From: Balamuthia mandrillaris
Taxonomy: Eukaryota
NCBI GenBank assembly: GCA_031835245.2
Contig: JAVKOQ020000021.1
Span: 1-64,000, forward strand
Direction: 5' to 3'
Length of the DNA stretch: 64,000 bases
A program made the translations under genes and the position numbers. A model generated the notes under the pieces. That model was not told the origin of the DNA. It did not search any database and saw only the letters and a program-made list of their open reading frames with translations. This document shows, piece by piece, positions 1 through 24,080 of the stretch. The first letter of the stretch is position 1; every line of letters starts with the position of its first letter.

Positions 1-80
1 TAACCCTAACCCTAACCCTGATCTGATCGAAATTTCCTTTAGCCCTAGACCTAACCTAGCTTTGCCCTAACCTTACCTAA
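1..80 (+). repeat. Telomeric repeat (TAACCC)3 plus degenerate telomere-like variants; chromosome/contig end
   Basis: taaccctaaccctaaccct at 1-19, then ccctagacctaacctag and ccctaaccttacctaa up to ~80. The C-rich strand at the 5' end is the orientation expected of a left TTAGGG telomere. Confidence 0.85.
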
Positions 81-2256: not shown

Positions 2257-2307
2257 AAGTATACCAAAAAAACAAGCAAAGCAAAAAAGAAAGATGAACA
2301 GGCTAAC

Positions 2308-3962
2308 AAGGCCGTGAAGAGCAGTGAGTACAGTCACAAAGGAAAACAAAGATCATGGAGAGCAGTGCGGCCAGTCACAAAGGAGAAGAAAGAAAGGTCG
2401 TGAAGAGCAGCACGGCCTCTAAGAAGAAAGGTCATGAAGGAAAAACCAAGGCCGTGAAGAGCAGTGAGTGCAGTCACAAAGGAAAACAAAGATCATGGAG
2501 AGCAGTGCGGCCAGTCACAAAGAAGAAGAAAGGTTGTGAAAAGCAGCATGGCCTCAAAGAAGAAAGGTCCTGAAGGAAAAACCAAGGCCGTGGAGAGCAG
2601 TAAGTGCAGTCACAAAGGAAAACAAAGGTCATGGAGAGCAGTACAGTCAGTCACAAAGGAGAAGAAAGGTCGTGAAGAGCAGCACGGCCTCAAAGAAGAA
2701 GAAAGGCCATCTATGAAAGAGAAGAAAAGCACAAAGGAGAAGAAAGGCTGTGAAGAGCAGTACAGCCACGAAGGAAAAGAAAGGCCGTGAAGAGCAGTGA
2801 GTGCAGCAGCCAGCCAGCCGCAAAGGAGAAGAAAGACAGCAAAGAGCAGCCAGTGTGGCCTCAAAGAAGGAGAAAAGCCAGCCAGCAAAGAGGGAAAACG
2901 GCTGTAACGAGCAGTGAGTGCAGTCATAAAGGAGAAGAAAGGCCATGAAAAGCAGCGTGACCTCAAAGAAGAAGAAAGGCCGTGAAGGGCCGTGCGGGCA
3001 CAACGGAGAAGGCCATGAAGAAAAAGAACAGCCAGCGCAACCAAAGAAGAAGAACGGCCATGAAGAGCAAAGCGGTCAGTCGGTCGGTCAGTCAGTCGGT
3101 CGGTCGGTCAGTCAGTCGGTCGGTCGGTCGGTCGGTCGTTCGGTCGGCCAGTCGGTCGGTCGGTCGGTCGGTCGGTCGGTCGGTCGGTCGGTCGGTCGGT
3201 CGGTCGGTCGGTCGCAAAGAAGAAGAAAGGCCGTGAAGGGCAGAGCAATTGCATGCAAAGAAGAAGAAAGGCCGTGATGGAGAAGAAAAGCCACGGAGAG
3301 CAGTGCAATTGCATGCAAAGGAGAAGAAAGGCTGTGAAAAAGAAGAAAGGCCATGGCCATGAAGAACAGTGTCATTACAAAGGGGAAGAAAGGTTGTGAA
3401 GAGCAGCAGTGCAGCCTCCGAGGAGAAGAAAGGCTGTGACGAGCAGTACAGCCACAAAGGGAGAAAAAGGCCGCGAAGAGCAGTGTGGCTGGCTGCGAAG
3501 AAGAAGAGAAGAGCAGTGCGGGGGCCTCAAAGGAGGGGAAAAGTCATGAAGGGAAAGAAAGGCTGTGAAGAACAGTGCAGTCCTAAAGGAGAAGAAAGGT
3601 GATGAAGAGGAAAAAGGCCGTGAAGAGCAGCGCAGCTTCCAAAAAGATGAAGAAAGGCTGTGAAGGGCTGTGCGGGATGGAGAAGGTCATGAAGAAAAAG
3701 AAAAGCCATTAAGAACAGTGCAACCACAAAGAAGAAGAAAGGCCATGAAGGGCAGAGTGGTTGGTCGGTTAGTCGGTCGGTTGGTCGGTCGGTCGGTCGG
3801 TTGGTCGGTCGCCAAGAAAAAGAAAGGCCGTGACGGCGGGGCCGAAAAGCCACAGAGAGCAGTTTGACCACAACAGAGAAGAAAGGCCATGAAGAACAGT
3901 GTGGCTACAAAGAGGAAGAAAGGTGTGACGTGTGGGTCATGAAGAGGGAGGAAGGCCGTGAA
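2308..3962. repeat. Purine-rich degenerate tandem repeat with embedded (GGTC)n tracts
   Basis: Recurring gaagaaaggc(c/t)gtgaagagcag motif. A ~136-140 bp higher-order unit starts at ~2308, 2448 and 2584. (GGTC)n lies at ~3073-3213 and ~3759-3810. Confidence 0.9.
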
Positions 3963-4148: not shown

Positions 4149-4464
4149 ATGAAACGTAACAGAGGGGAACTGAAGGAACACTACCAAACGCTAGAGCGAC
4201 AGCTACGATGCCAGCAACAGCAGCAGCAGCAACAGCAGCAACAAGAGAAGGCAGAAAACAAGCGACTGAAGCGCGTACGGCTTCGACAAGCGAAAATGAA
4301 ACGCAGGCACGTCTTTTTAACAGTATTATTGTTGTTATGTTGTTGTTGTTGTTGTTGTTCTTCTTCTTCTTGTTCTTCTTGTTCTTGTTCTTGTTCTTGT
4401 TCTTGTTCTTCTTCTTCTTCTTCTTCTTCTTCTTCTTCTTCTTCTTCTTCTTCTTCTTCTTCTT

Positions 4465-4495
<31 letters not shown>

Positions 4496-5911
4496 TTGGT
4501 TACCATAGGTTGTTTGGTTAACTTTAGGTTTGCTTTCCGCTTTTTGCTCCTCCTTTGTTCATATTGGTGGCATTGTTCTATGCAACTTGACCGACTGTTG
4601 AATTGCAAACGTAGACGAGCAGGGATTCACCTCTCACCTCCATTACCAAAGATAAAGCTACCATTACTTAGTAGCGAGGAAAAGTTACAAGTCCTGTGGT
4701 CAGCACCTCTGACTTTGGAAGAAAGCCAACAATCTGGCCCCTTTTCTTCTTATCGCTTGCTGTCCGCAAAAGACCTGCTGGACTCTTTCCAGTTTGAGGC
4801 CGAAGCTAGTACCCACAGCTTAAAACGACTTTTTCCCTGCAGCAGCAGCGGTGGCAGCAGCGGCGGCGACAAAAACAAGATGAACTCAAAGGCAGCTTAC
4901 AAGTAATTTCTCTTTCTTCTTCTTTATGTTTGTTCTACTCAATGTGTTTTCTTTTTTTCCGTTCTCCTGGTTTGTTCATTGTTTTTTTTCTTTCTTTCTA
5001 TCTCTTCTTTTTCTTTTTCTTTTTCTTTTTCTTTTTTTTTTTTTTACTTTGCTTGCTCTCTTGCTCGCTCGCTCACTCGCTCGCTCACGTTTTTGATAAA
5101 CAGGTTAGCTTATATTTATGTTCCAGTGGATAAGCAACTTAAAGAATGGAAAGAAAGGCATTGTCTCTCCAACCAAGACCTTCACTTGATTATGACCTCT
5201 AGCGGTGGGAACTTGGGCAAAAGAAACAACATTGCCAGTGCAGGGAAGGCAGCTGGCGTGGGAAAGCGACCAGGCACGGACAAAGGATACTTTGGGCTGT
5301 CATATACCCTTGCTCCACGTGGTCCAATTTTTCAGGAATGGCTTTCAAAATGGTGGACGCAGCAACCCTTGCAGTTGAGAACTAGAAGAGAGGAACAAGA
5401 AGAAATGGAGAAAAAGGAAAAGGAAAGTGCAACCACAAAAATGATAACAACAAAGAAGACCATGGAAGAGAAAGAGGAGGAGGAAGAGGAAGCGGACGAG
5501 GACGAGGACGAGGACGAGGAAGAGGAAAAGGAAGAGAACAAGGAAGAAGAAGAGGAAGAGGAAGAGGATAAGGAAGAGGAAAAGGAAAAGGAAGAGGAAG
5601 AGTCAGAAGAAAAACAAAAAGAAAAGAAAAGAAGCACTAGACCTCACTATCACCACAAGGATTTTCCCTACAAGGAACTAAGGAACTTGGAAACTCTCCG
5701 CCCAGATCTCTACGCTTCTTTCGAGTCGTTGGCTTGCATTTTGGCCGCAATAATGCAACAGCACTGCCAAAGGGCTTCAAAGTATCGAAAGAAAACCCTG
5801 AAGAGGCTTTTTTCAACAACTGTAGGAGCATCAATGTCATCTTCATCTCCATTATCATTCTCTTCCTTTTCCTTCTTCCCCTCCTCTTCCTCTTCGTTGT
5901 CATCATCCTCG

Positions 5912-5965
<54 letters not shown>

Positions 5966-6631
5966 GCAGCACTGAAGGAAGGGATAAAGACATCAATAAA
6001 GTGGAAACGCTACCTAGAGGCCGTGGCCATCAGGATGGCCCACAGAGGTACTCTTCTAGGCCAAGGCTTTGCCACAAACCTTATTTTTAGTTGGAATTTT
6101 AGTTCAGCGCCACATGTGGATCCGCAAGATGATGCTAAGGGATTGGCCATTGTGGTTTGGTGGCGCGGTTGGGACCAAAGCAACCGCTGCCCCTACGGCA
6201 GTGATGATGGAAAGCATCGTGCAGCAGGAGAGGTATGGGCCTTTTTTTTCCCTCAATTCTATCGTGCAGTGCGCCTGCATGACCTGGCAACTATTATCTT
6301 CAATTCGGCTGAAGTGTGGCATGGTTCGATCTTTCAAAGAGCTCCGCATTGCACATGTTCAGTTTATGGCTCAATCTCCGCCTTGAACAAACGATTTTTG
6401 AGTGCAATGCACAAGAAAAAGAGCAATGATGACAGCCAGCAACAACAACAACTACCTCCATCACAACTACAACCACAACCACAACCACAACAGCAACAAC
6501 AAAAACAACCCCAACAACAACAACTCTCATCACCACTACTGCCACCACCACTATTGCAAGACTTAACACGATCCTTGTTTGAAATGGCCTCGTACTTTAG
6601 TGCCCCACGAACGACTACAACGACAAAATAA
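4149..6631 (+). CDS. TET/JBP-like 2OG-Fe(II) dioxygenase (spliced; catalytic exon 5104-6631)
   Basis: The last exon encodes FATNLIFSWNFSSAP-HVD-PQDD (HxD at 6113-6121), WAFFFPQFYRAVRLHDLATIIFNSAEVW-H-GS (distal His 6320-6322) and YGSISALNKR. Upstream GKAAGVGKRPGTDKGYFGLSY resembles the GxxxxxGxR...GxY motif of fungal TET/JBP proteins. Intron 4903-5103 (gtaatt...aaacag) joins the frames. First exon and start at 4149 are inferred. Confidence 0.75.
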
Positions 6632-6661
6632 CAGTCAGCAGCAAGCAGATTAGAACAATTG

Positions 6662-6989: not shown

Positions 6990-9900
6990 TTACAACACTA
7001 ATAAAGGATCCACAAAGTCATCTTCAGCTGTCCTTGAAATAATAACAACATCATCATTAGAATCTTCATCTTCATCTTCCTCTTCAACAACAGCACACTC
7101 CTTCTGTGTGGTCTTTCTTTGAACAGCTGCTCTTTTGCTCTGTTGTCCTTGTCGAAGTCGTCGTCGTCGTTGTTGTGATGATGAGTGTTTATTCCTCCTT
7201 CTTCTCGATTTTAGGGTTGTGGTCCTGCTTTGGTCGTTAGTTTGTCTGGTGGTGGTGGTTGATTGTTGTAGGCCATCCTTTTCCTCGTTTCCCACCCTCG
7301 TGACAGCAACCACAGCACTTCCTCCGCCACCATCCTCACCACAGGTTGAAGAAGTAACAGCCGCAGCCCCAGTCTTTCTTCGTTTTGCTTTGCGAAAACC
7401 AGTGTCGATCTGGTCGTTACCCTCTTGGCTGAAATCTAGAATGCCGATGCAAGGACCGCGAAGACGTTGTTTCGGTTCCATCATCAGCAGATTGTGTAGG
7501 TCCTGGCAATTGTTGCAGTTGTTGTTGTTGTTGTTGTTGTTGTTGTCATTGTTGTAGTGGTGATGATGATAAGGATCCTCCTCTTGTGCCTCTTCGTTGT
7601 TGCTCTCATGGTCGTTGGTGTCGTGGGTAAGAAGGTGACGATGATGGCGAGTAGCACGCCGCTTGTTGTGGGAGTTGGGCATCGAGTGTTGGCCGAGGCG
7701 AGCGAGCTCCTTTGGTAACTGCACCTGCTCCCATTCCACATCATCAACAGTGGTCCTGAGAGGGCGAGCATAGCCCGAAATCTCGAGGTCCCTTTGAAGT
7801 CCTGGGTAATCCCCTTTTGTCATCCCCATGGAGGCCTTCGTGGAACGAGACACTTCTTCATCGTCGTCATCGCCTTCGTTGCTGTCGCTGCTGCTGCTGT
7901 CCTCCTCAGGACTGCTGAAGGCTGCTGAGGAACCGCCACCGCCACTCCCACCGCCACCACCACCGTCGCCACCACCACCACTACCACAACAACGGATAAA
8001 CCAAGCATTTGTTTGGTCTAAAACGGACCTCACTCCTTGTTGCAAAAGCTCATCCACCAGCTGCTGTTGGGTTCTCCATGTTTCCTCAAACGTACTGTAG
8101 CGATTGTAGTTTTCGCGCATAACCATCTCTTGCACGTTCAACAAATCGGCCAGGGCACTCAACCATTTGGAGAATTCCTCGGTGTCCAGGCTACCTTTCT
8201 TGCGGAAAACATCGGTCAAGGTCATCCTTCGGTATTGAATTGGCGTGAGTCCAGCCACATAAGGATTGAAGTCTTGGCCCATCTGACGAACCTCTTGGCT
8301 GAACTGCTTGTACTCCATCGCTTGGCCCTTCCTGTTGATCCACAAAGCCCAAGGATTGAATGGATGTTCCTTGCGACTTTGTTGTCCGGAGGTGGCGCAG
8401 CAATGGTTGTTGCTGTTGTTGTGGTTGTTGCGGCGGTTGCCATGGGTCAGGTTGCGTAGCATCGTCGTGTCACCCTCAGCATGGTTGCTGTCCTCCTCCT
8501 CCTCCTCCTCCTCCTCCTCCTCCTCTTTCACAATCTTCTAGGCAGTGGTCCTCATCCGACATGGTATTCTCTTTATCTTCATCATCATCATCATTGTTGT
8601 CATGAGTGTCGTCGTTGTGTTTGTTGTAGTTATTGCCGTTATCTTCGACATCAGTATTGCCGTTGACAGTTGTTGTTAAGGGACGGTGATGATGAGGAGA
8701 ATGCAAGTGGCTGCTATCGAGTAACGAAGGACGAACCGTACTCAAAAAGTAATCCAACAAAGGTATAAAGCAGGATGGCAAAGGAATCTTATTTGTTTTG
8801 GTTCGAGTTTTTTTCTCTCGAGTGGAGATGATGTAAAGTATCACCTCTTCGTGGCGCTTGTGTGATGAAGCAGCACTAGCCTCAGCTTCAGTAGATAGGG
8901 AAGAGGATGCAGAAGAAGAAGAAGAAGAAGAAGAAGAAGAAGAAGAAGAAGAAGAAGAACAAGAAGAAGAAGCCGAAGATGATGATGATGATGATGACGA
9001 TGTTGAAGGCGAACCCACTTTTAAACGATCGAGTCGTAAACCAGCCACTACTTGTCGTCTCAAACCACCGCAAAAATTCATAAGCAATGTCATCAAACAA
9101 CGTTGAAAAAGCCTTGCTTCCTGTCGTTGAAACAGTAGTTTTTTGGTTTGTAGCCGTTGTCGTTTCTTTCGACGACGTTGCTGTCGCTGTTATAATTAAC
9201 AGAGCCACCATGAAGAAAAAGCAAAGTAAGAAAAGTAAGAAAAGTAGGACTCACTCACCACAAAAACAAACAAACGAAACAAACAAACAAATTATTGCCC
9301 TCCCTAAGCAATGTTTCCTCACCCTAATAAGACGGACAAACAGATAAAACAATAAAAATGGAATCTATCCATCTGTTCATTCTAACCAGCCAGCCAGCCA
9401 GCCAGCCAGATTACCAACCTTTCTTTTAATAGCCTTGCAGGTTAGAGCATGCATCTTGTTCAACATCCAGATGGCAAACACAGCCCTTTCTTCCGCAGTG
9501 ATAAACTTGCCGTTGTTGATCATATCCTTTTCATGGAAAATTTCACTTTGATAGCTGTGGTTTTCGTGCATAGCTTGATTTGCTACTTCTCGAATTAACT
9601 AACCACCAACCTTACATCAGTTATAGAAAGAAACGACAAGAAAGAAAGAAAGAAAGAAAGAAGAAAGAAACAACAACAAGAAATGACAAGAAAGAAACAA
9701 CTACAAAGAAAGAAAGAAAGAAACGACTAGAAAGAAATGACAAGAGAGAAAGAAAGAGACCAAAAGGAAATAGCTACATACGAGACGACAAAATACGATT
9801 TGCCGAACATAACCACGAAATTCAGGTTGGAATGACATCCACCACAGCACTCGTGCCAATATAGCCGCTTTGTTTCGTCGCGTCTTTGCCTGTCCCCAAC

Positions 9901-11869: not shown

Positions 11870-12239
11870 TTCTGCTCGCTTCTTTACTTGCCCTTGCACT
11901 TACTCACTTGCAGGCTTGCTTTCTTTTCTTTCTTTTCTTTCTTTTTTGTGTCTTCCATCCCATCTTCGTCACCTGTTCGCTCTTCTCTTCACCCATCAAT
12001 TTTCTTCTATTTTCACCAATGTTTTTTTTTTCATTAATTATTTCTATTAAATCTATCTTCTCATTGGATGGCTTTTGGTGATGGTTGTTTTTTGGTCTTT
12101 GTTTCCGTTTTGTTGTAGTTTTTTTTGAGCTACGTACGTACGACAAAAAAAAACAGTTTTGCTGTTCGCTGCAATAGTAAGAACAACACAGCACAGCAAA
12201 GGCAAACAAAAGTAGTGAGAACGAACTTGTTTGCTTGCT

Positions 12240-14935
12240 TCTTGGCTTGCAACAGCTATGTGGACTTGCTTCCTTGGATGGAAAAGCTCGCTGCTGATAC
12301 TTCTTCAGCAAAGAGATGAAACCAAGGGAGTAGGTCTGCGTGCATGACACAACAGCTGTGCGGACTTGCTTCCTTGGGCTGAAAAGCTCGCTGCTGCTGA
12401 TGCTTCATTCAGCAAAGAGATGAAACCAAGGGAGTAGGCCTGCATGCACTATGCAACAGCTGTGTGGACTTGCTTCCTTGGATGGAAAAGCTCGCTGCTG
12501 ATACTTCTTCAGCAAAGAGATGAAACCAAGGGAGTAGGTCTGCGTGCATGACACAACAGCTGTGCGGACTTGCTTCCTTGGGCTGAAAAGCTCGCTGCTG
12601 CTGATGCTTCATTCAGCAAAGAGATGAAACCAAAGGAGTAGGTCTGCGTGCGCTACGCAACAACTGTGCGGACTTGCTTCCTTGGGCAGAAAAGCTTGCT
12701 GCTGATGCTTCATTCAGCAAAGAGATGAAACCAAGGGAGTAGGCCTGCATGCACTATGCAACAGCTGTGTGGACTTGCTTCCTTGGATGGAAAAGCTCAC
12801 TGCTGATGCTTCATTCAGCAAAGAGATGAAACCAAGGGAGTAGGTCTACTTGCTTCCTTGGATGGAAAAGCTCGCTGCTGATACTTCTTCAGCAAAGAGA
12901 TGAAACCAAGGGAGTAGGTCTGCGTGCATGACACAACAGCTGTGAGGACTTGCTTCCTTGGGCTGAAAAGCTCGCTGCTGCTGATGCTTCATTCGGCAAG
13001 AGATGGGCTCCAAGGGGGAGTAGGCCTGCATGCACTATGCAACAGCTGTGTGGACTTGCTTCCTTGGACTGGAAAAGCTCGCTGCTGATACTTCTTCCAG
13101 CGAGATGAAACCAAGGGAGTAGGTCTGCGTGCATGACACGAAACAGCTGTGCGGACTTGCTTCCTTGGGCTGAAAAGCTCGCTGCTGCTGATGGCACATT
13201 CAGCAGGGAATGAAACCAAGGAGTAGGTCTGCGTGCGCTACATATGACACAATGGCGGACTTGCTTCGCCCCAGGCAGAAAGCACAACAACGTGCTTCGT
13301 TCGACGAAGATGAAACCAAGGGAGTAGGCCTGCATGCACTATGCAAGCCGGCTGTGTGGACTTGCTTCCTTGGATGGAAAAGCTCACTGCTGATGCTTCA
13401 TTATTCAAAGAGATGAAACCAAAATTAGGTCTGCATACGACTCTGCATGACAGCTGTGCGGACTTGCTTCCTTGGACAGAAAAGCTCGCTGCTGATGATG
13501 CTTCATTCAGCAAAGAGATGAAACCAAGGGAGTAGGCCTGCATGCACTATGCAACAGCTGTGTGGACTTGCTTCCTTGGATGGAAAAGCTCGCTGCTGAT
13601 ACTTCTTCAGCAAAGAGATGAAACCAAGGGAGTAGGTCTGCGTGCATGACACAACAGCTGTGCGGACTTGCTTCCTTGGGCAGAAAAGCTCGCTGCTGAT
13701 GATGCTTCATTCAGCAAAGAGATGAAACCAAGGGAGTAGGCCTGTGTGCGCTATGCAACAGCTATGTGGACTTGCTTCCTTGGATGGAAAAGCTCGCTGC
13801 TGATACTTCTTCAGCAAAGAGATGAAACCAAGGGAGTAGGTCTGCGTGCATGACACAACAGCTGTGCGGACTTGCTTCCTTGGGCAGAAAAGCTCGCTGC
13901 TGATGATGCTTCATTCAGCAAAGAGATGAAACCAAGGGAGTAGGCCTGTGTGCGCTATGCAACAGCTGTGCAGACTTGCTTCCTTGGATGGAAAAGCTCG
14001 CTGCTGCTGATGCTTCGTTCAGCAAAGAGAGATTAAAACCAAGGGAAGTTAGGCCTGTGTACACTACACAACAGCTCAATGGACTGCTTCTGAGCTGAAA
14101 AGCTCGCTGCTGATGCTTCATTCAGCAAGAGATGAAACCAAGGGAGTAGGTCTCGTGTGCTCGCCTTGGCCCAATGTGGACTTGCTTCCTTGGGCAGAAA
14201 CTTCGCTGCGTGCTTCATTCAGCAAAGAGATGAAACAAAGGGAGTAGGTCTGCGTCGCTACACAGCAACTGTCTTGACTTGCTTCCTTGGACAGAAAGAC
14301 TGTAGCGTGCTTCGTTGACCAAAGAGATGAAACCAAGGGAGTAGGCCTGCATGCACTATGCAACAGCTGTGTGGACTTGCTTCCTTGGATGGAAAAGCTC
14401 ACTGCTGATGCTTCATTCAGCAAAGAGATGAAACCAAGGGAGTAGGTCTGCATACGCTACACAACAGCTGTGCGGACTTGCTTCCTTGGACTGAAAAGCT
14501 CGCTGCTGATGATGCTTCATTCAGCAAAGAGATGAAACCAAGGGAGTAGGCCTGCATGCACTATGCAACAGCTGTGTGGACTTGCTTCCTTGGATGGAAA
14601 AACTCGCTGCTGATACTTCTTCAGCAAAGAGATGAAACCAAGGGAGTAGGTCTGCGTGCATGACACAACAGCTGTGCGGACTTGCTTCCTTGGGCAGAAA
14701 AGCTTGCTGCTGATGCTTCATTCAGCAAAGAGATGAAACCAAGGGAGTAGGCCTGCATGCGCTACACAACAGCTGTGCGGACTTGCTTCCTTGGATGGAA
14801 AAGCTTGCTGCTGCTGATGCTTCTTCAGCAAAGAGATGAAACCAAGGGAGTAGGCTGTGCAGACTTGCTTTCTTGGGCAGAAAAGCTTGCTGCTGACGCT
14901 TCAGCAAAGAGATGAAACCAAGGGAGTAGGTCTGG
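12240..14935. repeat. ~100-104 bp tandem satellite, ~27 units, often alternating two variants
   Basis: Unit cagcaaagagatgaaaccaagggagtagg(t/c)ctgc...ggacttgcttccttgg...aaaagctcgctgctgat starts at 12306, 12410, 12510, 12614, 12715, 12816 ... 14902. Confidence 0.97.
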
Positions 14936-15230
14936 CTGGGATGAAGGACAACATTCCTTTGAACCTGCTTACGCCCAGGCTTGATGCTGTTGCACCACCT
15001 GTGGTACGCGATGATCGGCAAACAAAAGAGCTGAAGCAAGAGTGGTAGTTCTGAGAGTGCATAAGATGTTCGGTTGGTTGGTTAGTTAGTTGGTGGTTCA
15101 AAAAAAAGAAACAAGAGAATGAGTTGAGAAGTAAGCAGGTTCCGAGCCAGCTTGTGTGTCGGTCCCCGAGGTCTTTATGGCTCTCATGTCGTCATGAAAG
15201 TCTCAAACATTTCGTCTCTTCCTTTTTCTC

Positions 15231-15500
15231 TTCTCAGCCTTCTGCTGCTTCCTCGCGTTCTCTGCCTCAGGCGGCTTCGCCGCCTTCGGCAGGTGGCCTT
15301 CAGCCACCCTCTAGAAGCCTGGTAGACCCACATTTTCAACAGAAAAAGTGGGAAAGCGACATTTGTCTCGCGATTCCACCGGAAATTGCACTTTTGCGGC
15401 CTTGGGCCGCTTCCTCGCGTTCTCCGCCTCAGGCGGCTTCGCCGCCTTCGGCAGGTGGCCTTCGGCCACCCTCTAGAAGGCCGGTAGACCCCTAACCCTA
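15231..15500. repeat. 162-bp GC-rich repeat (~1.6 copies, CpG-intact) ending in CCCTAACCCTA
   Basis: ttcctcgcgttctc at 15249 and 15411; telomere-like motif at 15490-15500. Confidence 0.9.
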
Positions 15501-15824
15501 CCTAGTTTCTACTCTTTATCATACAGCCACTGTTTACAGAGACAATACTTGTTTCTTTCCAAGTCACAAACCAATTTGTGGTTATATTTGTCAACAAATC
15601 TCATCTCCAGCTCCTCACAGTTTCAGTGGTGTTTTCCGTCCTTGTCAACAAAAGGAAGGTTTGGTGACAGTCACAGATTTCACTTTTTTAAGCCAACACC
15701 TTGTTGCTGGCAACCGGGGTGCGGGGAAAAGAAGCAAGAAGCGATGGCGCATCTAGCTCACCACTCTTGGTTTCCGAAGGACCCTTGTTTTTTTCATTGA
15801 GCCTTTCTCTTTCAGTTATTGTGA

Positions 15825-16920
15825 TAAGCTGCTCTCTCGCTCTCTCACCTCTCGTCTCTACTCTCACCTCTCTCTTCTCTCCTCTTTCTTTTCACCTATC
15901 TCTCTCCACTCGCCTATCTCTCACCTCTCCCCTCTCTCCTCTCACCTTTCTCCTCACCTCTTGCCTATCTCTCACCTCCTCTCTCCTCTCTCTCCTCCTT
16001 GCCTCTCACCTCTCTCGTCTCTCGCCTTTCTCCTCTCTCGCCTCTCTCCTCTCTCGTCTCTCACCTCTCGTCTATCTCTCACCTCCTCTCTCCTCTCTCT
16101 CCTCCCTGCCTCTCACCTCTCTCCTCTCTCTCCTCACCTCTCCTCTCCTCTCTTCTCTCTCCTCTCTTGCCTCTCTATCTCTCTCCTTACCTCTCTTTCT
16201 TTCCTCTTACCTCACCTTGTTGGAAAACTCCAACATAATAGCCCTTCTTCTCTTCCTGTCAACCTCTCCCTCATGCCTGTCGACCTGAGGAAACCTCTCG
16301 GTGTCCAACTTCTCCTTTCTTGAACTTCTCCTTTCTTGTTGTTTTCTCTCTCTGCCCTTTTATGCTGATATTCTCTGTTCTTCTTTTTTGGATATTTGTT
16401 CTAGCTTAAATACTGCCTCTCCTTGCTTCTTCTTCTTTTTCCTCTCGGGACAACTTACAACAAAACACAAGATACTTTACTATCACTTGTACTCTTCACT
16501 TTTAGTAAATTAAGTTTGGGTCTCATACTTACTTTGTCTTCGTCATCATTCCCGTTCTTATTTTACAACAACCTCTCACCTCTCTTCTCTTCTTACCTCT
16601 CTCCTCTCTTACCTCTCTGCTCGCCTCTCGCCTCTCACCTCTCACCTCTTGCCTCTTGCCTCTTGCCTCTCGCCTCTTGCCTCTCGCTTCTCGCCTCTCG
16701 CCTCTCGCCTCTCTCTTCTCTCTGCTTACCTCTCCTCTTCTCTCTCCTTGCCTCTCTCTCCTCTCTTCTCACCTCTTCTCTTACCTCTCCTCTTGCTTCT
16801 CACCTCTTGCCTCTCTCTCTTCTCTCCTCTCTCCTCTCTCTGCTCTTTGCTCTTTGCTCTCTGCTCTCTCATCTTTCCTCTCTCAGCTCTTACCTCTATT
16901 CTTTTAGCTTGTTGCTCACC
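15825..16920. repeat. CT-rich low-complexity tract interrupted by a solo LTR
   Basis: (ctctcacct/ctctcgcct)-type degenerate repeats on both sides of 16218-16570. Confidence 0.9.
16218..16570 (-). mobile_element. Solo LTR (353 bp)
   Basis: Starts TGTTGGAAAA and ends TTTTACAACA (10-bp inverted termini, 1 mismatch). ACCT lies on both flanks (16214-16217, 16571-16574). A TATA-like tatttaa is present on the minus strand (basis for the tentative strand). Second copy at 22457-22791. Confidence 0.75.
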
Positions 16921-17099
16921 TCTTGTCTTTTGTCTTGTTTCTCACCAGGGAGTTACTGCAATACTTGTGTTTGGGGATCACAGAGAGCTGTTCTGTTACA
17001 CTCTTCTCTTGTCATCATGATATGCTTCAATAATAAACATTTTGCAACAAAAGAATCAAAAGAGAGAGAGAGAGAGAGAAAGAGAGAGGAAGGAGAGAG

Positions 17100-19256
17100 A
17101 GGCCTGATGAAAGCAAAAAACTGAAGGTGAGGGTTTGAATGTATTGAACGGAATTCAAACCCCAAGTTTTTGCAGACAATCTCCTATTCATCATGTTATC
17201 TCTTCTCTCCATATGAACCCTGCTCTTATCTATCTTGTGATCACATACAGAAAAATGATTAATACAGCTGTCTAAACAGGTTGTAAGAAATACAGAAAAA
17301 CCTGTTTGGTGATCAATGGGCTGTATATACAGGTAAATCCTGTCCAGACACCTGTTTATACAGCTGTATTTCACTAACAGAGCTCAGTTGCTGTTGTGCA
17401 AGTCGTTTTAGTGTTGTTTTGCTTTGTGTAAACATATGATGCTTGTGTTGCAGTACAAGTCCTGGTATGTCTCTGTCATCTTCACTCTCTATAACATATT
17501 CAAGGTAGTTAATGCCTCTGTTGTCATCCCAGCCTTCATCATAGTCCCAGTCATCATTGCCATTGCTGTCATCAAAGTCTTTGCTGGCATCACTGCCTTC
17601 TATGTCATCGCAGTCAATGCTCTCTTCTCCATCATCACAGTCATTACAGCTTTCTCTGTCATCACAGTATTTGCTGTCATCATCACCATCAATATCACAA
17701 TCCTCTTTGTCATCTTCTTTATCATTGTTGCCATTGCTGTCATCATTGCTGTTGTTATCATAGTTGCCATTGTTGTTGTCACAGTTGTTGCTGTCATCAA
17801 TGCCTTCACGCTCCTTGCTCTCCTTGCTGTCTTTGCTCTCTTCTCTCTCTTTGCTCTCTTCAATATCTTTGCTGTCTTTCCTGGCTTCGATGCCTTCACT
17901 CTCTTTGCTGGCTTTGCTGGCTATGCTGGCTTCGCTGTCTTCACTCTCTTCACTGGCTTCACTCTCTTCGCTGGCTTCGCTCTCTTTGCTCTCTTCAATC
18001 TCTTCACTGGCTTCACTCTCTTCGCTGGCTTCACTCTCTGTTATGTCATTGCAGTCTTCGCTCTCATCGCTATCACCACTGTCATTGTTGCTATCTGTAT
18101 CTGTGCTATTTTCATTGTCTGTGTTATTACTGCTGATTTCATAGCTGTCATCTTTGCTCTGCTTTCTCTTTTTTTCCCCCACATTGGTGTTTTCTAGAGA
18201 ACAAATTCTGCACATGAAGTGAAGAATCAGAAGAAATAAGTGACCTCAAATCAAGCAACAATACTACAGCCATAAATTATTTTCTTTTGGGGGGAAAGAA
18301 AAAGATAATACTTCTGATCACGCAATGCACAACAGGTCTGTTGGCTGCTGCTGCTCTCTGATCATCCACCCATGGTAACCTTCTTTTCATTAAAAAGATT
18401 GCTTAGAATTTTGTTTTTGCTGATCTGCTTACTTTTTTTTTTGTTGGTCCTCAGCGCTCCTTGCTTCATTCTCCTTTGAGTTCTTCTACCCCTTCTTGGC
18501 AGGGGTTTTCCCCTTCTACTACAGGACCTATCTCCTCCATTTGTTCTTCAACAAGGGAGTACTCTCCTTTTACTCCTCCTTCAACTTGGCTGACTTCCCC
18601 CTGTGTTTTTCACCTTCAACTGGGCAGTGCTCCTCTCCTGGTTCTCCATCTCGACAGCACTTTCTCCTTTTTTCTCCTTCTGAACAGCGCTCTCCCCAGC
18701 ATTTTCACCCTCAACAGTGCTCTTCCCAGCATTCACCTTCTCAATGGTCCTCCAGGCGTTCTCTTCCTTGGCAGTGCTCTTCCTGGGGTTCTTCTCCTCA
18801 ATGGTCCTCCCCCCACCTTTCTTTTCCATTCTTTACCCATTCTCACAAGGATCTCGGGCTATCCTTGCAGCAACATCCAGCAGGACAAGGTCCTGCAATG
18901 TGCCATTGCTCAAAGGAATTCAAGTCTCGCTGCAACCTGGTACTTCATTGCTATTGCTTCACCAAGTTTTGATGGAGATCACACACAATAAATGCTTTGT
19001 TGTTGGTACAGAGAGACGGTGGCCTTTTGTGCAACAATCACTTTAGTGTTGTTGTGCAGGGGATAAATAGTCTCTTTGTTGTATCAGCTGATGTATGCAG
19101 AGAGACGGTGGCCTTTTGTGAAACAATCGCTTTAGCGTTGTTGTGCAGGGGATAAATAGTCTCTTTGTTGTATCAGCTTACATATGCAGAGAGATGGTGG
19201 CCTTTTGTGCAACAATCACTTCAGCGTTGTTGTGCAGGGGATAAATAGTCTCTTTA
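17100..19256 (-). pseudogene. Decayed gene of unknown family: Cys-rich segment, degenerate coiled-coil repeats and an acidic repeat exon (ORF 17313-18215)
   Basis: The minus frame at 18841-19020 reads CTNNKAFIVCDLHQNLVKQ*Q*STRLQRDLNSFEQWHIAGPCPAGCCCK, with stops explainable by C->T changes. No family recognised. Confidence 0.35.
19010..19256. repeat. 89-bp tandem repeat x~3
   Basis: agagaga(c/t)ggtggccttttgtg at 19010, 19099 and 19188. Confidence 0.95.
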
Positions 19257-19294
19257 CTGCTTATGTGCTCTCTCCATGAAAACACGTCTTTCTC

Positions 19295-19608
19295 TCCATT
19301 AATCAAATGGATTTAGTAAGTTAGTCAAAGATAAAAGATTTCAACAAGACTTCCAGGAATGGACTACAGATCAAGCAAAATTATCAAGAATTTCTAAAGG
19401 TGCAAAGAAATTGTGTCCTTGGGACACACTCACAGAGGTTGAAAGGGCTTTCTTTCCATTAATCAAATGGATTTAGTAAGTTAGTCAAAGATAAAAGATT
19501 TCAACAAGACTTCTGGGAATGGGCTACAGATCAAGCAAAATTATCAAGAATTTCTAAAAGTGCAAAGAAATTGTGTCCTTGGGACACACTTGCAGAGGTT
19601 GGAAGGGC
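19295..19608. repeat. 160-bp tandem duplication
   Basis: tccattaatcaaatggatttagtaag... at 19295 and 19455. Confidence 0.95.
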
Positions 19609-19769
19609 TGTTGTTAAGTAGGGCTGTGCTGAAAATGACTCATGGAACCACAATAGCCTGGATAAGGCTGTACCAAAAGTTCAACGGCTATCACAGAAAG
19701 AAAGAAAAAGTTCCCTCTGGTGATTGCTGTAATGTAACTATTCCTTTCTCTGTTTAGTTTTCTTTATTC

Positions 19770-20255
19770 TTCTCATTCTTGTGTTCTTGGTCACATTCAC
19801 ATTCTTGTTCATCATTCTTGTTCACATTCACGTTCTTGTTCATTATTCTTGCATTCTTAGTCGTGTTCACATTCTTGTTCATCATTCTTGTTCATGTTTG
19901 TGTTCTTGTTCACGTTCACGTTCTTGTTCATCATTCTTGTGTTCTTGTTCATGTTGTTGTTCATTATTCTTGCATTCTTGTTCGCGTTGTTCTTTGCATT
20001 CTTGTTAATCATTCTTGCATTCTTGTGCTCATTCACATTCTTGTTCATTGTTATGGCGTTTTTGTTCATGTTAACAATCTTGTTCATCATTCTGGTTTGC
20101 GTTCCTGTTTGTGTTTGTGTTCTTGTTTATCATTCTTGTGTTCTTGTTCGTGTTTGTGTTCTTGTTCATCATTCTTGCATTCTTGTTGTTGTTCTCATTC
20201 TCGTTCTTGTTTTTGTTCTTGTGCTTGTTCTTGTTTTTGTTCTTGTTGTCATTCA
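19770..20255. repeat. Degenerate (ttcttg/ttcatc/ttcaca) hexamer microsatellite
   Basis: Directly visible; overlapping ORFs are artefacts. Confidence 0.9.
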
Positions 20256-20299
20256 AATATTTGTGGCTTTCTCATTTGTTTCCCACCATAAACACTCTA

Positions 20300-21090
20300 A
20301 AAGTTGATAGTTGAAGCACAGCTTGAGCTAAACATTAAATGCATGGTTGAAAAACTCATGGAACGCTTCAAGTTGCTGTTTATTGCTGTTCTTTATCATT
20401 TATGACTATTGGAAGCTAATTCAGATAGTGAAGTGTTTTTATCAATGATAGGGAATTCATTAACGGCCCTTCCTCCCTCTTTCATTTTCATTTCATTCGT
20501 TCTCTATTTGTAAGCATATTATTTATTTCTTTATTTTTCTTTTGCTAGCTTTCTGAGCAAAGCCCCTTGATCACAGCTGTTCAGCAAGCTGTAAATGTGG
20601 TGGAAAATGAGGACTGTCTGTACCAACATGCATTACTTGCTTTCATTCCTATGTGGGATATAGAATCAGCAGAAAGGAGGCAAGTCAGACACCCACTGCA
20701 AGCTGGCATTTCTCGTGACTCACTTATCAGCGAGTGTGAGCTGCACTTAAACCAAGCTTTTTACAGCACTTTGCTTTATACACTTTACCTAACCAAAGTT
20801 GACGAGATACCTTCCACCAGATCTCTTTTAATTCATGCCTTATTTGCAACAAATCCTACTATCAAGCTTCCCAAAGGAGCTGGTGCCTTTTTATCCACGT
20901 GCAAACAGCTCTTGGGTAACACGGGTTTTCAGCTTGGTTTACCTCTTTCATTGTTAAACACCACACTGCGTAACATTGCTTCTTTTTTTCTCTCTCTCTC
21001 TTAGTAATAGAACTATCCATCTGTCAAAATGGATGGCGACCTATCACAATTACCAAATATCAACTAGTTACTGCAACAACAAATGATAAA
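20300..21090 (+). pseudogene. Spliced gene remnant of unknown family (exon 20550-20935)
   Basis: Protein-like ORF 20567-21004 between pyrimidine-rich introns. Neighbouring exon-like segments contain stops, and the region is CpG-poor. Confidence 0.3.
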
Positions 21091-21491
21091 CAACAAGGAG
21101 AAAAGAATAGTGAAGAAGTGATGGAAGAAAGAGAGAGCTTTTAATAAATATATAATAATAATTTTGATTTTTGTTGTAATCTATTGATCAGATACCATGT
21201 GATCTTCCAATAGAAGCATTTGCATCATATACTTGGTTCATAGAAACACTTTTCAAAGAAAAAAGTCGTATAAACAATGTATATTTGCTTTCCATATATT
21301 TGTCAGATATTTGCTGAAAAAACGGCCCTGTGTATATTTGGTGGATATTCACCGTATATTTGCCAACTGTTTATCTGGTGTATATTCTCTGGAAATCCGG
21401 CTGGATATATCCACGTTTATCCATTGGATATATGCCCAAATATTTCGCCAGTAGAGTAGAGTATTGCAATGCTGAAACAGCAAATAAATCA

Positions 21492-21940
21492 ATTCCACCA
21501 TAAATCACACTTTCTCAGCCTTCTGCTGCTTCCTCGTGTTCTCTGCCTCAGGCAGCTTCACCGCCTTCAGCAGCTGGCCTTCAACCACCCTCTAGAAGCC
21601 TGGTAGACCCACATTTTCAACAGAAAAAGTGGGAAGGCAACATTTGTCTTGTGATTCCACTGGAAATTGCACTTTTGCCACCTTCAGCCACTTCCTCATG
21701 TTCTCTGCCTCAGGTGGCTGCGCCACCTTCAGCAGGTGGCCTTCAGCCACCCTCTAGAAGCCTGGTAGACCCACATTTTCAACAGAAAAAGTGGGAAAGC
21801 AACATTTGTCTCATGATTCCACCATAAATTGCACTTTTGCAACCTTCAGCCACTTCCTCACATTCTCTGCCTCAGGCGGCTTCACCACCTTCAGCAGGTG
21901 GCCTTCAGCCACCCTCTAGAAGGCCGATAGACCCCTAACC
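21492..21940. repeat. 162-bp repeat (~2.7 copies), CpG-decayed paralogue of 15231-15500
   Basis: ttcctc anchors at 21530, 21692 and 21854; ends in tagacccctaacc like the first cluster. Confidence 0.92.
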
Positions 21941-21979
21941 TCTGTATCTAAATTTGCTGACCAAACTGGTCCAATGAAA

Positions 21980-22456
21980 AAGCAATAAAACTATTTTGAA
22001 CTGAATGGTGAACAACGTTGTGATCACCAGTAGAACAAAACATATTGACATCAGATGCCACTTCATTTGTGAGAAAATCGCAGACAGACATGTGAAACTT
22101 CTGTATTGTCCAACAGAAAAGATGGTTGCAGATTTCCTGACAAAGCAACTGCCATGAGACAGGTTCAAACTATTGACTGCGGCTACTGGGATGATTGACT
22201 TTCCAAATCATACAACTTGAGAAGGAGTGTTGAAGCATGACAACATGACAAGTCAGATAATTGGAATGACTGGGGTGCTCCTATCTGCCGATTAAAGACA
22301 CTCACATACACACCCCGCAGTCCACACACTTTGATTAACTGATTACTTCCACCATGCAACATAATGATTGCCTTGCTTTTTGCTGGACAACACACAGTTA
22401 CAGGCTCATAGACTGGATTGCTTCTGTTAGAGGTAGTTACCTTTTGTTATTATCCC
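21980..22456 (+). mobile_element. Ty1/copia retrotransposon 3' remnant: RNase H end, polypurine tract, truncated 3' LTR
   Basis: From 22005 reads MVNNVVITS-RTKHIDIRCHF-ICEKIADRHVKLLYCPTEKMV-ADFLTK-QLP*. PPT gagaaggag at 22219-22227 is directly followed by TGTTGAAG at 22228. Confidence 0.9.
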
Positions 22457-22791
22457 TGTTTGAAAACTCCAACATAATAACTCTTCTTCTCTTTGTGTCA
22501 ACCTCTCTTTCCTGCTTGTCGACCTGAGGAAACCTCTCTGTGTCCACTTTCTCCTTTTTTGTTGTTTCTTTCTCTCTGCCCTTTTATGCTGATATTTTCT
22601 GCTCTTCTTTTTTGAATATTTCTTCTAGCTTAAATACTGCCTCTTCTTGCTTCTTCTTCTTTTTCCTTGGGACAACTTACAACAAAACACAAGATACTTT
22701 ACTTTTACTTGTACTCTTCACTTTTAGTAAATTAAGTTCGGGTCTTGTAGTTATTTGTCTCCGCTATCATTCCCGTTCTTATTTTACAACA
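22457..22791 (-). mobile_element. Second copy of the solo LTR, without matching target duplication
   Basis: TGTTTGAAAA...TTTTACAACA, colinear with 16218-16570. Flanks tccc / aacc do not match. Confidence 0.72.
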
Positions 22792-22825
22792 AACCTTCTT
22801 CGAGCTTCCTTCAAACAACACCACA

Positions 22826-23230
22826 GAAAGAAAACAAGAAAAAGTTTCTGCAAGGCATAATGCAAGAACAAGAAGACATCATCCACGACCTCGGCATGAA
22901 ATAACCTACGAGGCGCTCTCCAAGATGGATCGTTTGCATTGCTGCATCAAGGAGGCTCTTTGCATGTACCCTCCGCTCATCTTTCTCATGCAGCAGGTGG
23001 TCCGCCCGTTTGACTACAAGGGCTACACCGTGCCGGAGGGAGACATTCTCTTCGTCTCCCCTGCCCTCAGCATGCGGCTGCCTGTGGTATGACGAGTTCA
23101 ACCCCGAATGCTTTGCTCTGGCCCCTGAGGAAAGAGAAGAGAGGAAGTACTCTTACCTGGGCGTCGGCGCAGGCAGGCACGCCTGCATGGGAGAGAGCTT
23201 CGCTTACCTGCAGGTGAAGGGCCTTCTCGT
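22826..23230 (+). pseudogene. CYP51: Sterol 14-alpha-demethylase (CYP51)-like C-terminal fragment, frameshifted
   Basis: EITYEALSKMDRLHCCIKEALCMYPPLIFLMQQVVRPFDYKGYTVPEGDILFVSP, then in another frame DEFNPECF...YSYLGVGAGRHACMGESFAYLQVK (heme Cys motif). The ExxR and PERF arginines are mutated to Cys, and the N-terminal two thirds are missing. Confidence 0.8.
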
Positions 23231-23491
23231 CCTTGTAACCTGCATTACCAAAGAAGAAAAAGCTGAAAACAAAACTCCCATTTTTGACAAGCCATCTCTT
23301 ATGATTTGTCCAGGCGCGACTTCTCTTGGTCAGCGGCAAACGCCACCCACAAGAACTTGAGTCAGCTTCTGCGTTGATGTTTTTGATTAATGTCTGAAAC
23401 GATGTCTTTGTTTCTTGGCATCCCAGTAACAGTGAAAGCAGAAGGTGACTAGCTGCAAAAGTGCCAGTTGCTTTCTTTCTTCTGTTTGCTT

Positions 23492-23522
<31 letters not shown>

Positions 23523-23764
23523 GGAGTACAACTCTAGTTTTGATTTTTCCCAAACGAAGGAGGATGGAGCTGTATCAACAATACACAACAGGAGTTGTTG
23601 TGAACGCAGCACATGATGCTGCTCTGTGATGCTTGAGATTTATTTGCAAGGAAGGAGCAGTATCATGAGCAAATATTCACATTAAAAAGGAATACTTCAA
23701 CAGAGAACGTGTTCTCCACCATGTGTGCTCTATTCAACAATTTATAAGAGAGGTGAATATTGAA

Positions 23765-24080
23765 AGGCGGCCCACAGATAAGGATATGCACCCACGATAT
23801 GCGGCCCACGGATTGGCGCCCACGGATTGGCGCCCACAGATATGTGGCCTATAGATATGGATATCCGCCCACAGATAAGAACATGCACCCATGGACATGC
23901 GCCAATGGTTATGGATAAGCGGTCCACGGATTGGCGCCCACAGATGTGGGTATGCAGCCGTGGATTGGCGCCCACAGATCAGATATGCGCCCATGGATGT
24001 GCAGCCCAGAAATAAGCGCCTATAAATATGGAGAGGAGGTCCACAGGTTGGTAGCCCACAGATATGCACCCATGGCGAGG
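23765..24080. repeat. Degenerate minisatellite of ggattggcgcccac(g/a) / cccacagat units
   Basis: ggattggcgcccac at ~23810, 23824, 23927 and 23962. Confidence 0.85.

What the first reader, a model, noticed from the sequence alone, without database searches (positions are those of the whole stretch)
5104..6420. TET/JBP-like enzyme with a non-canonical 2OG-binding strand and large low-complexity inserts
Seen: HxD and the distal His are intact, but the strand after the His reads SVYGSISAL with no Arg where TET/JBP proteins normally have the Rx5-aromatic 2OG-binding motif. The domain is split by poly-E and poly-S inserts. Established: kinetoplastid JBP makes telomeric base J, and TET homologues in Naegleria, fungi and Chlamydomonas (CMD1) differ in substrate and co-substrate. 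Inference: the chemistry could be atypical, and the telomeric position invites testing for modified bases at chromosome ends.
Basis: partly seen in the sequence, partly recalled or inferred. Interest (0 to 1): 0.7.

Follow-up and report, generated by a model that had tools for sequence, protein, structure and literature searches.

The report
Amoeba TET-like oxygenase, remodelled cofactor strand
Near a likely chromosome end of an amoeba lies a spliced, strongly conserved gene for a TET-like iron enzyme that lacks one of the two arginines normally holding its co-substrate, as many fungal-transposon relatives also do; it likely still modifies methyl-cytosine in DNA, but this is untested and nothing points to base J.

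Summary
The ORF is exon 3 of a spliced 657-aa gene; the closest database protein is labelled Balamuthia mandrillaris. H486/D488/H555 are intact. Alignments put Val569 where TET/JBP enzymes have the C5-carboxylate Arg and Ala575 at the base-stacking aromatic/Gln. This is not an assembly error: two DNA runs agree, and a second version about 8% divergent also has Val569. The domain is under strong purifying selection (dN/dS about 0.06). Nearest relatives are Tet-like (PF20515; rust-transposon 'PU-type'), not JBP. There the Arg loss is common: 19 of 41 PU rows read and 2 of 3 relatives found lack it. Ala at the stacking site was unique among these. Both structure models were low-confidence and did not decide the class. 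Best reading: a mobile-element-derived TET-like 5mC oxygenase with a remodelled co-substrate pocket (0.45). Rivals: pseudoenzyme (0.25), vitamin-C chemistry (0.1), base J (0.08). The inserts are local low-complexity, as in neighbouring genes. Interest is moderate.

The parts
1..80 (+). Telomere-like stub: three TAACCC units, then degenerate units; suggests the contig end is a chromosome end
4149..4306 (+). Exon 1 (ATG; basic and Gln-rich N-terminus)
   Evidence: Inferred: an X10 contig has 176 loose letters before 4607, whose reported 30 match window 4269-4298 exactly
4307..4614 (+). Intron 1, GC..AG (inferred)
   Evidence: X10 contig skips it; its single mismatch fits this junction; the spliced frame is open. 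X10 is only guessed to be RNA
4615..4902 (+). Exon 2 (no recognised domain)
   Evidence: X10 contig 1; Pfam blank for 4580-4903
4903..5103 (+). Intron 2, GT..AG
   Evidence: Joint 4902>5104 in 3 RNA reads of X22
5104..6631 (+). Exon 3: whole TET-like domain plus Q/P-rich tail and stop
   Evidence: RNA depth about 1-4 over its non-repetitive parts
5231..5278 (+). N-terminal strand with the retained first Arg, R204 (5267-5269); inferred equivalent of TET2 R1261 / CMD1 R244
   Evidence: by-eye match to the PU-type G-x-R motif
5384..5630 (+). Acidic (poly-E/D/K) insert, about 80 aa, after the Arg hairpin
5678..5755 (+). Conserved helix (LRPDL motif) shared with P0002 and P0003
5834..5965 (+). Poly-Ser insert between helix and core; the second version also has a Ser run, of different sequence
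6047..6421 (+). Core of the double-stranded beta-helix: S478, H486, D488, D491, H555, S557, R561
6362..6388 (+). Last strand V569-N577: Val at the Arg site, Ile at +4, Ala at the +6 stacking site, Asn at +8
   Evidence: strand E106-114 in a low-confidence model

Best explanation
This is a spliced, weakly transcribed, purifying-selected gene for a TET/JBP-superfamily iron oxygenase of the Tet-like (PF20515/PU-type) branch, which likely oxidises 5-methylcytosine in DNA using a remodelled co-substrate pocket. Shown: the gene structure (intron 2 from RNA reads, intron 1 from one contig); intact His-Asp-His; R204, D491, S478 and S557 kept; V569, I573 and A575 in place of Arg, Ser and aromatic/Gln; dN/dS about 0.06. 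Inferred from CMD1, TET2 and NgTET1 structures: Fe(II) sits on H486/D488/H555, R204 stacks on a flipped base and holds the C1 end of the co-substrate, and D491 reads cytosine N4. With no Arg for the C5 carboxylate, 2-oxoglutarate would be held loosely or by a substitute residue, or a shorter 2-oxo acid would be used, so turnover is predicted to be low. Likely origin and role (inferred): cargo of a transposon or endogenous virus, since TETs of this kind ride such elements, probably acting against 5mC silencing and now kept in a repeat-rich subtelomere.
For: ESM Atlas top clusters carry PF12851 Tet_JBP on 31% and 27% of members (score 0.95 and 0.94). Relative P0003 (E 1.1e-6) passes PF20515 (30.6 bits vs cut-off 27) and weakly hits PF12851. 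Three collinear blocks match the relatives. R204 aligns with the G-x-R Arg. Residue roles are from Li 2021 passages. Selection: 29.5 synonymous vs 8.5 non-synonymous changes over 156 codons, dN/dS 0.064, Fisher p 4e-15. Arg loss coexists with an intact triad in 19 of 41 PU rows. CpG o/e is 0.28-0.46 at 12-24 kb vs 0.65-0.88 at 24-64 kb, as repeat-directed 5mC would leave. TETs on transposons, polinton-like viruses and a latent giant virus are in print.
Against: No activity data. Neither Pfam nor PDB sequence search hits the window protein itself, and the profile comparison with phage TET/JBP is weak (prob 11%, E 0.0027). Both AlphaFold models are poor (pLDDT 44 and 49). Ala at the +6 stacking site differs from all 41 PU rows and all 3 relatives; F416A cuts CMD1 activity eightfold. 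The activity of PU-type enzymes has not been measured in what I read. No element ends were found, and the recombinase-like neighbour has no profile support. 5mC and DNA methyltransferases in this organism were not tested.
Confidence: 0.45

Rival explanations
1. Pseudoenzyme or nearly dead enzyme, kept as a metal-stabilised binder of DNA or 5mC, or as a scaffold.
For: Three pocket positions on the last strand are changed together (V569, I573, A575). Transcription is low. Large inserts sit in or near the predicted DNA-facing loops. 27 of 74 and 15 of 47 fungal TET/JBP homologues are not counted as predicted active (passage).
Against: The triad, R204, D491, S478 and S557 are unchanged between two versions that differ at about 30% of silent sites. 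Pseudoenzymes usually lose metal ligands (own knowledge).
Confidence: 0.25
2. CMD1-like chemistry: ascorbate is the co-substrate and a glyceryl (or other) adduct is added to 5mC.
For: CMD1 does not use its last-strand Arg and cannot use 2OG. The hydroxyl residues at the CMD1 T337 and T399 sites (S478, S557) and the R244 site (R204) are present, by offset from the His residues. Kojima lists CMD1 among the closest structures to the PU type.
Against: By the same offsets, CMD1's essential Trp358 is Val499 here, Ser335 is Ile, Ser414 is Ile573, Phe416 is Ala575 and Arg418 is Asn577. These offsets were not checked on a structure.
Confidence: 0.1
3. Not a DNA-5mC enzyme: it acts on RNA, another base (such as 6mA) or a non-nucleic-acid substrate, or it belongs to another oxygenase class.
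For: The stacking residue is lost. CcTET shows that substrate switches occur in this family. In Foldseek, prolyl hydroxylases and cupins rank level with or above CcTet, all non-significant.
Against: All sequence-level leads point to Tet-like families. The N-terminal Arg hairpin and helix match PU-type TETs.
Confidence: 0.12
4. JBP-like thymine hydroxylase making 5hmU or base J at chromosome ends.
For: The gene lies about 4 kb from a telomere-like end. Some TET/JBP enzymes act on both T and 5mC (passage).
Against: The relatives found are PU/PF20515-like. Asp at HxD+3 disfavours thymine in CMD1, whereas the ParB-adjacent phage gp2, of a class predicted to act on T, has Asn there; TET2 also has Asn, so this is weak. 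No J-binding or SNF2 domain was recognised in the parts scanned. A gene's position does not set where its enzyme acts.
Confidence: 0.08

Closest known systems
PU-type TET/JBP dioxygenases of rust-fungus DNA transposons (Kojima 2025, PMC12730594); Pfam PF20515 2OG-FeII_Oxy_6 (Tet-like)
   Same: Same order of motifs, by eye against Table S1 rows: G-x-R hairpin, long helix, N-F-x-x-x-x-H-x-D-x-x-D, F-F-P strand, distal His plus hydroxyl at +2, last strand with Gly at +2 and often Asn at +8. The N-terminal motif is closest to the PU subgroup that has His at the Arg site. 19 of 41 rows read lack the Arg (15 His, 1 each of Lys, Pro, Ser, Leu).
   Different: Ala at +6, where all 41 rows have Gln or Glu, and Ile at +4, where 40 of 41 have Ser. 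Two large inserts and about 150 aa of N-terminal extension. Amoebozoan host, and no transposase or element ends shown. The window protein does not itself hit PF20515.
Chlamydomonas CMD1 (Li et al. 2021, PMC7854593)
   Same: Intact HxD...H; first Arg and HxD+3 Asp kept; no working C5-carboxylate Arg.
   Different: Here the Arg is gone, and the Trp358, Ser414, Phe416 and Arg418 sites are Val, Ile, Ala and Asn (by offset).
Canonical TET/JBP: human TET2, Naegleria NgTET1, Coprinopsis CcTET, phage gp2-type, kinetoplastid JBP1/2
   Same: Metal triad, first Arg, and the residue at HxD+3 (Asp234 in NgTET1).
   Different: Lacks both the Arg (R1896/R289) and the aromatic (Y1902/F295) of the last strand. 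No accessory domain recognised. No significant sequence match to solved structures.
TET-like genes of mobile elements in protists: punuivirus GEVE (bioRxiv 10.64898/2026.10.09.758095), polinton-like viruses (10.64898/2026.06.19.733378); TET/JBP noted in Acanthamoeba (PMC8889193)
   Same: Intron-containing TET-like gene in a repeat-rich region of a protist; a possible recombinase-like neighbour.
   Different: No capsid, ATPase or other viral hallmark recognised nearby; sequence kinship to those proteins was not tested.

Membership tests
TET/JBP family (canonical) | HxD...H Fe(II) triad | tested here: met
   H486, D488, H555; invariant in alignment A7; unchanged in the second version
TET/JBP family (canonical) | First Arg (TET2 R1261 / NgTET1 R224 / CMD1 R244) | tested here: met
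   R204 aligns with the G-x-R Arg of P0002 and P0003; its equivalence to the solved-structure Arg is inferred from position, not from a structure
TET/JBP family (canonical) | Last-strand Arg binding the 2OG C5 carboxylate | tested here: not met
   V569 in the Arg column; same in the second version
TET/JBP family (canonical) | Base-stacking aromatic at Arg+6 | tested here: not met
   A575; state in the second version unresolved (within 31 nt of a contig end)
TET/JBP family (canonical) | Match to Pfam PF12851 or to solved TET structures | tested here: inconclusive
   No direct HMM hit; Atlas features point to PF12851 clusters; models too poor to classify
TET/JBP family (canonical) | Oxidation of 5mC or T in DNA | not testable with these tools
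   needs an assay
Tet-like PF20515 / PU-type | Profile match | tested here: inconclusive
   Window protein: no hit. Relative P0003 is above the cut-off; P0005 E 3e-4, below it; P0002 none
Tet-like PF20515 / PU-type | Gln/Glu at +6 and Ser at +4 of the last strand (my reading of 41 rows, not a published definition) | tested here: not met
   A575 and I573
Tet-like PF20515 / PU-type | Carried inside a DNA transposon | tested here: inconclusive
   No element ends among the listed repeats, which simple repeats dominate; neighbour unclassified
CMD1-like vitamin-C enzymes | Trp358, Ser414, Phe416, Arg418 pocket residues | tested here: not met
   Val499, Ile573, Ala575, Asn577 by offset from the His/Arg positions given; not structure-checked
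JBP / base-J system | JBP-clade hydroxylase with J-binding or SNF2 domain, plus a J-glucosyltransferase | tested here: inconclusive
   No such domain in Pfam scans of exons 2-3; no tree with JBP was built; the genome could not be searched
AlkB / prolyl-hydroxylase classes | Model or sequence groups with these classes | tested here: inconclusive
   Only non-significant Foldseek rows (best E 0.08 in PDB, 0.02 in viral) from a pLDDT-49 model; sequence leads point elsewhere

The most novel reading that the evidence does not exclude
A broad Arg-less branch of Tet-like enzymes (His-type PU transposon TETs, P0002, P0005 and this amoebal protein) has abandoned 2-oxoglutarate. The amoebal enzyme, whose pocket is widened further by Ala at the stacking site, uses another co-substrate to write a DNA base not yet described, a third TET chemistry after hydroxylation and CMD1 glycerylation.
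Probability: 0.12. Interest if true: 0.85.

Novelty: new variant of a known kind. Interest (0 to 1): 0.42.

Why it matters
Whether TET/JBP proteins use other cofactors or substrates is named as an open question in a 2024 review (PMC11065753, passage). CMD1 showed that a changed 2OG pocket can mean new chemistry. This gene is a natural, selectively maintained test case. It also points to a larger untested set: nearly half of the rust-transposon TETs read lack the same Arg. If it proves a plain or dead TET, it is one more mobile-element-type TET in a protist. Any unusual DNA base in an amoeba that infects people would also bear on sequencing-based work with it.

Tried and rejected
No hit for the window domain in Pfam, PDB sequences, PHROGs, NCBIfam or the word-index protein search (0 of 397 candidates). 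Searches with P0003 and with the 4-row alignment added nothing. Viral and metagenome contig scans confirmed 0 of 39 and 0 of 113 pattern matches; phage tblastn was blank (54). Hit P0004 is a zinc-finger repeat protein and was dropped as spurious. Single-sequence AlphaFold gave pLDDT 44 with almost no strands. An 8-row fold of the core, four rows being phage TET/JBP and so biased, gave pLDDT 49 with a beta-sandwich strand pattern. Foldseek found nothing at E<=0.001 (CcTet prob 0.93, E 0.27, level with prolyl hydroxylases). VIA best Z 6.3 was to unrelated sandwiches, with no TET in the 50 rows. All of this is uninformative on class. An early by-eye reading that the first Arg was also lost (Thr in GLSYT) was rejected once GVGKRPG aligned. 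Rescue by R561: the three Arg-less proteins have Arg or Lys at His+6 and P0003 does not, but 2 of 4 phage rows with the canonical Arg also do, so this is not diagnostic. Assembly error and pseudogene were rejected. The tyrosine-recombinase reading of the neighbour got no support from Pfam, PHROGs, NCBIfam, PDB, phage tblastn, viral contigs or a 4-integrase profile. Literature: 0 papers for Balamuthia+TET+dioxygenase, 0 for the conserved-arginine-lacking query (128), 0. Iyer 2013 and 2014 are not held and may already describe Arg-less clades.

Full report
Gene and setting. The window opens with three TAACCC units and degenerate copies, followed by repeat-rich DNA. No genome is held. RNA reads of run X22 join 4902 to 5104 across a GT..AG intron (3 reads). 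A contig of run X10 (only guessed to be RNA) has a loose end matching 4269-4298, which implies a GC..AG intron at 4307-4614. The spliced frame is open and gives 657 aa. Transcription is low: depth about 1-4 from about 12.9 million records per run, read from 3-5% of each run. None of the 83 laid RNA reads was 99% identical, so they come from the second version of the gene or from another strain, and some lie on a CAA repeat. The best database match (76% identity) is a mis-modelled copy of that second version, named 'hypothetical protein [Balamuthia mandrillaris]' by NCBI; its cluster has two members.

Is the missing Arg real? Runs X1 and X3 carry 5975-6430 with no difference (either may be the window's source). 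Run X9 holds two versions, one like the window and one about 8% different at about twice the depth. The second keeps H486, D488, D491, H555, R561 and V569; A575 lies too near its contig end to read. Over 156 codons where differences could be listed, I count 29.5 synonymous and 8.5 replacing changes, dN/dS 0.064. Exon 2 gave 4 and 4 over 28 codons, dN/dS 0.24. Three listed sites outside these regions and one site in the window-like contig were left out. The gene is therefore maintained by selection; it is neither a pseudogene nor an error. Whether the versions are alleles or paralogues is unknown.

Family. Pfam, PDB, PHROGs, NCBIfam and the word-index search do not recognise the protein. The ESM Atlas ranks Tet_JBP-bearing clusters first (0.95 and 0.94; PF12851 on 31% and 27% of members). 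A full HMMER scan of 1.8 billion representatives gave 5 hits: the second version, three relatives (P0002, P0003, P0005; E 1e-7 to 7e-4) and one spurious zinc-finger protein. P0003 passes the cut-off of PF20515, 'Tet-like 2OG-Fe(II) oxygenase'. The query was only the C-terminal core, yet two upstream blocks also match P0002 and P0003: an Arg-bearing strand (3 of 5000 shuffles reach its score) and the LRPDL helix (0 of 5000). In each case only 1 of 444 same-length six-frame pieces of the window, presumably this gene's own, reached the score (block limits were chosen after seeing the match). The domain is thus three collinear blocks split by the acidic and Ser-rich inserts.

Active site. Li 2021 (passages) gives two 2OG Args in TET2 and NgTET1 (R1261/R1896, R224/R289), an Asp or Asn binding cytosine N4 (D350, N1387, D234) and a stacking aromatic (F416, Y1902, F295). 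Here R204 fills the first Arg site (structural equivalence inferred) and D491 sits at HxD+3. On the last strand, V569 falls in the Arg column and A575 in the aromatic column of phage gp2-type proteins. The gp2 strand aligns weakly but in register with NgTet1. CMD1's distinctive residues (W358, S414, F416, R418) are not matched by offset, so vitamin-C chemistry gets no specific support.

How unusual? P0003 has the Arg; P0002 has Phe and P0005 Ala. In Kojima 2025 Table S1, I read parts 1, 2 and 7 of 20 of the supplement: 41 PU-type rows from a sheet of 165 rows, many of them close relatives. By eye, 22 have Arg, 15 His, and 1 each Lys, Pro, Ser and Leu at that site. All 41 have Gln or Glu at +6, and 37 of the 40 with an N-terminus keep the first Arg. 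The word 'arginine' does not occur in that paper's main text; its Figure 7 was not visible to me. The window's N-terminal motif most resembles the His subgroup. Arg loss is therefore a recurrent trait of this branch. What is particular here is Ala at +6 together with Ile at +4. An earlier AI note on another genome reports a similar Arg-less clade (e1-7508450); it is a lead, not support.

Inserts. Runs of Glu, Ser, Asn or Gln also fill the neighbouring ORFs. Loose ends at 5814, 6032 and 6410 show that the Ser-rich insert and the tail differ between the versions, though P0001 also has a Ser run. I read them as tolerated loop expansions.

Telomere and base J. Position is the only argument. The relatives are not JBP-like. 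Asp at HxD+3 disfavours thymine in CMD1. The glucosyltransferase could not be sought. CpG depletion in the repeat zone (o/e 0.28-0.46 at 12-24 kb vs 0.65-0.88 at 24-64 kb; 0.63-0.74 in the first 12 kb) fits past or present repeat-directed 5mC, which is indirect support for a 5mC substrate. TETs are carried by fungal transposons, polinton-like viruses and a latent giant virus, where anti-silencing is proposed. TET/JBP is already noted in Acanthamoeba. The convergent neighbour looks by eye like a tyrosine recombinase, but every profile test was blank, so a mobile origin is an inference.

Papers seen. PMC12730594: abstract, introduction, part of the methods, section 3.4, passages and three supplement parts. 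PMC7854593, PMC11065753, PMC13229309, PMC11244446, PMC8889193, 10.64898/2026.10.09.758095 and 10.64898/2026.06.19.733378: passages only. Iyer 2013 and 2014: not held. Supplementary alignments of Li 2021 and the Iyer papers, which I did not see, may bear on the residue mapping and on novelty. No held paper links Balamuthia to a TET dioxygenase.

Verdict. Observation confirmed; interpretation partly supported. This is a new variant of a known kind: a selected, Tet-like oxygenase with a remodelled last strand, likely acting on 5mC (0.45). The alternatives are pseudoenzyme (0.25), another substrate or class (0.12), vitamin-C chemistry (0.1) and base J (0.08). Interest 0.42.

Noticed in passing
window 6990-~11900 (-): Multi-exon gene convergent with the TET-like gene. 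By eye it carries tyrosine-recombinase-like motifs (GLRR near 9050, a Lys-rich strand near 8810, IQYRR near 8235, NY near 8105), with a frame change or small intron at about 8476-8650. No profile support was found.
   Followed up: partly
window 6188-6358 and relatives P0002, P0003, P0005: Cys and His residues recur in the two core loops (here C511, a His ten residues further on, H564/C565/C567; one Cys column is invariant). They could form a structural zinc site peculiar to this lineage.
   Followed up: no
Kojima 2025 Table S1: A whole subgroup of rust-transposon TETs has His instead of the 2OG Arg, together with a GFR[PGSC] N-terminal motif; not remarked on in the text I read.
   Followed up: partly
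window 4307-4614: Probable GC-AG intron filled with TTC/TTG repeats.
   Followed up: partly
window 12248-14930: Array of about 100/104-bp units (about 25 copies); with 2307-3950 (37-41/136-bp units), a likely subtelomeric satellite.
   Followed up: no
window 12000-24000: CpG-depleted zone (o/e 0.28-0.46) with a 261-bp repeat at 15231, 21512 and 21674 and cytochrome P450 fragments at 22751-23360; looks like decayed, formerly methylated DNA.
   Followed up: partly
run X9 on window 4500-6650: Two gene versions about 8% apart at roughly 1:2 depth, while runs X1 and X3 show one over 5975-6430; may reflect ploidy, hybridity or subtelomeric paralogues.
   Followed up: partly
window 25804-26892 (+): Intronless AAA/STAND-like ATPase ORF (PF13401, E 5e-8).
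   Followed up: no
L001:785-1753 (NC_008195 gp2): The record labels this TET/JBP protein (PF12851, E 4e-6) 'queuine tRNA-ribosyltransferase', which looks like a misannotation.
   Followed up: partly
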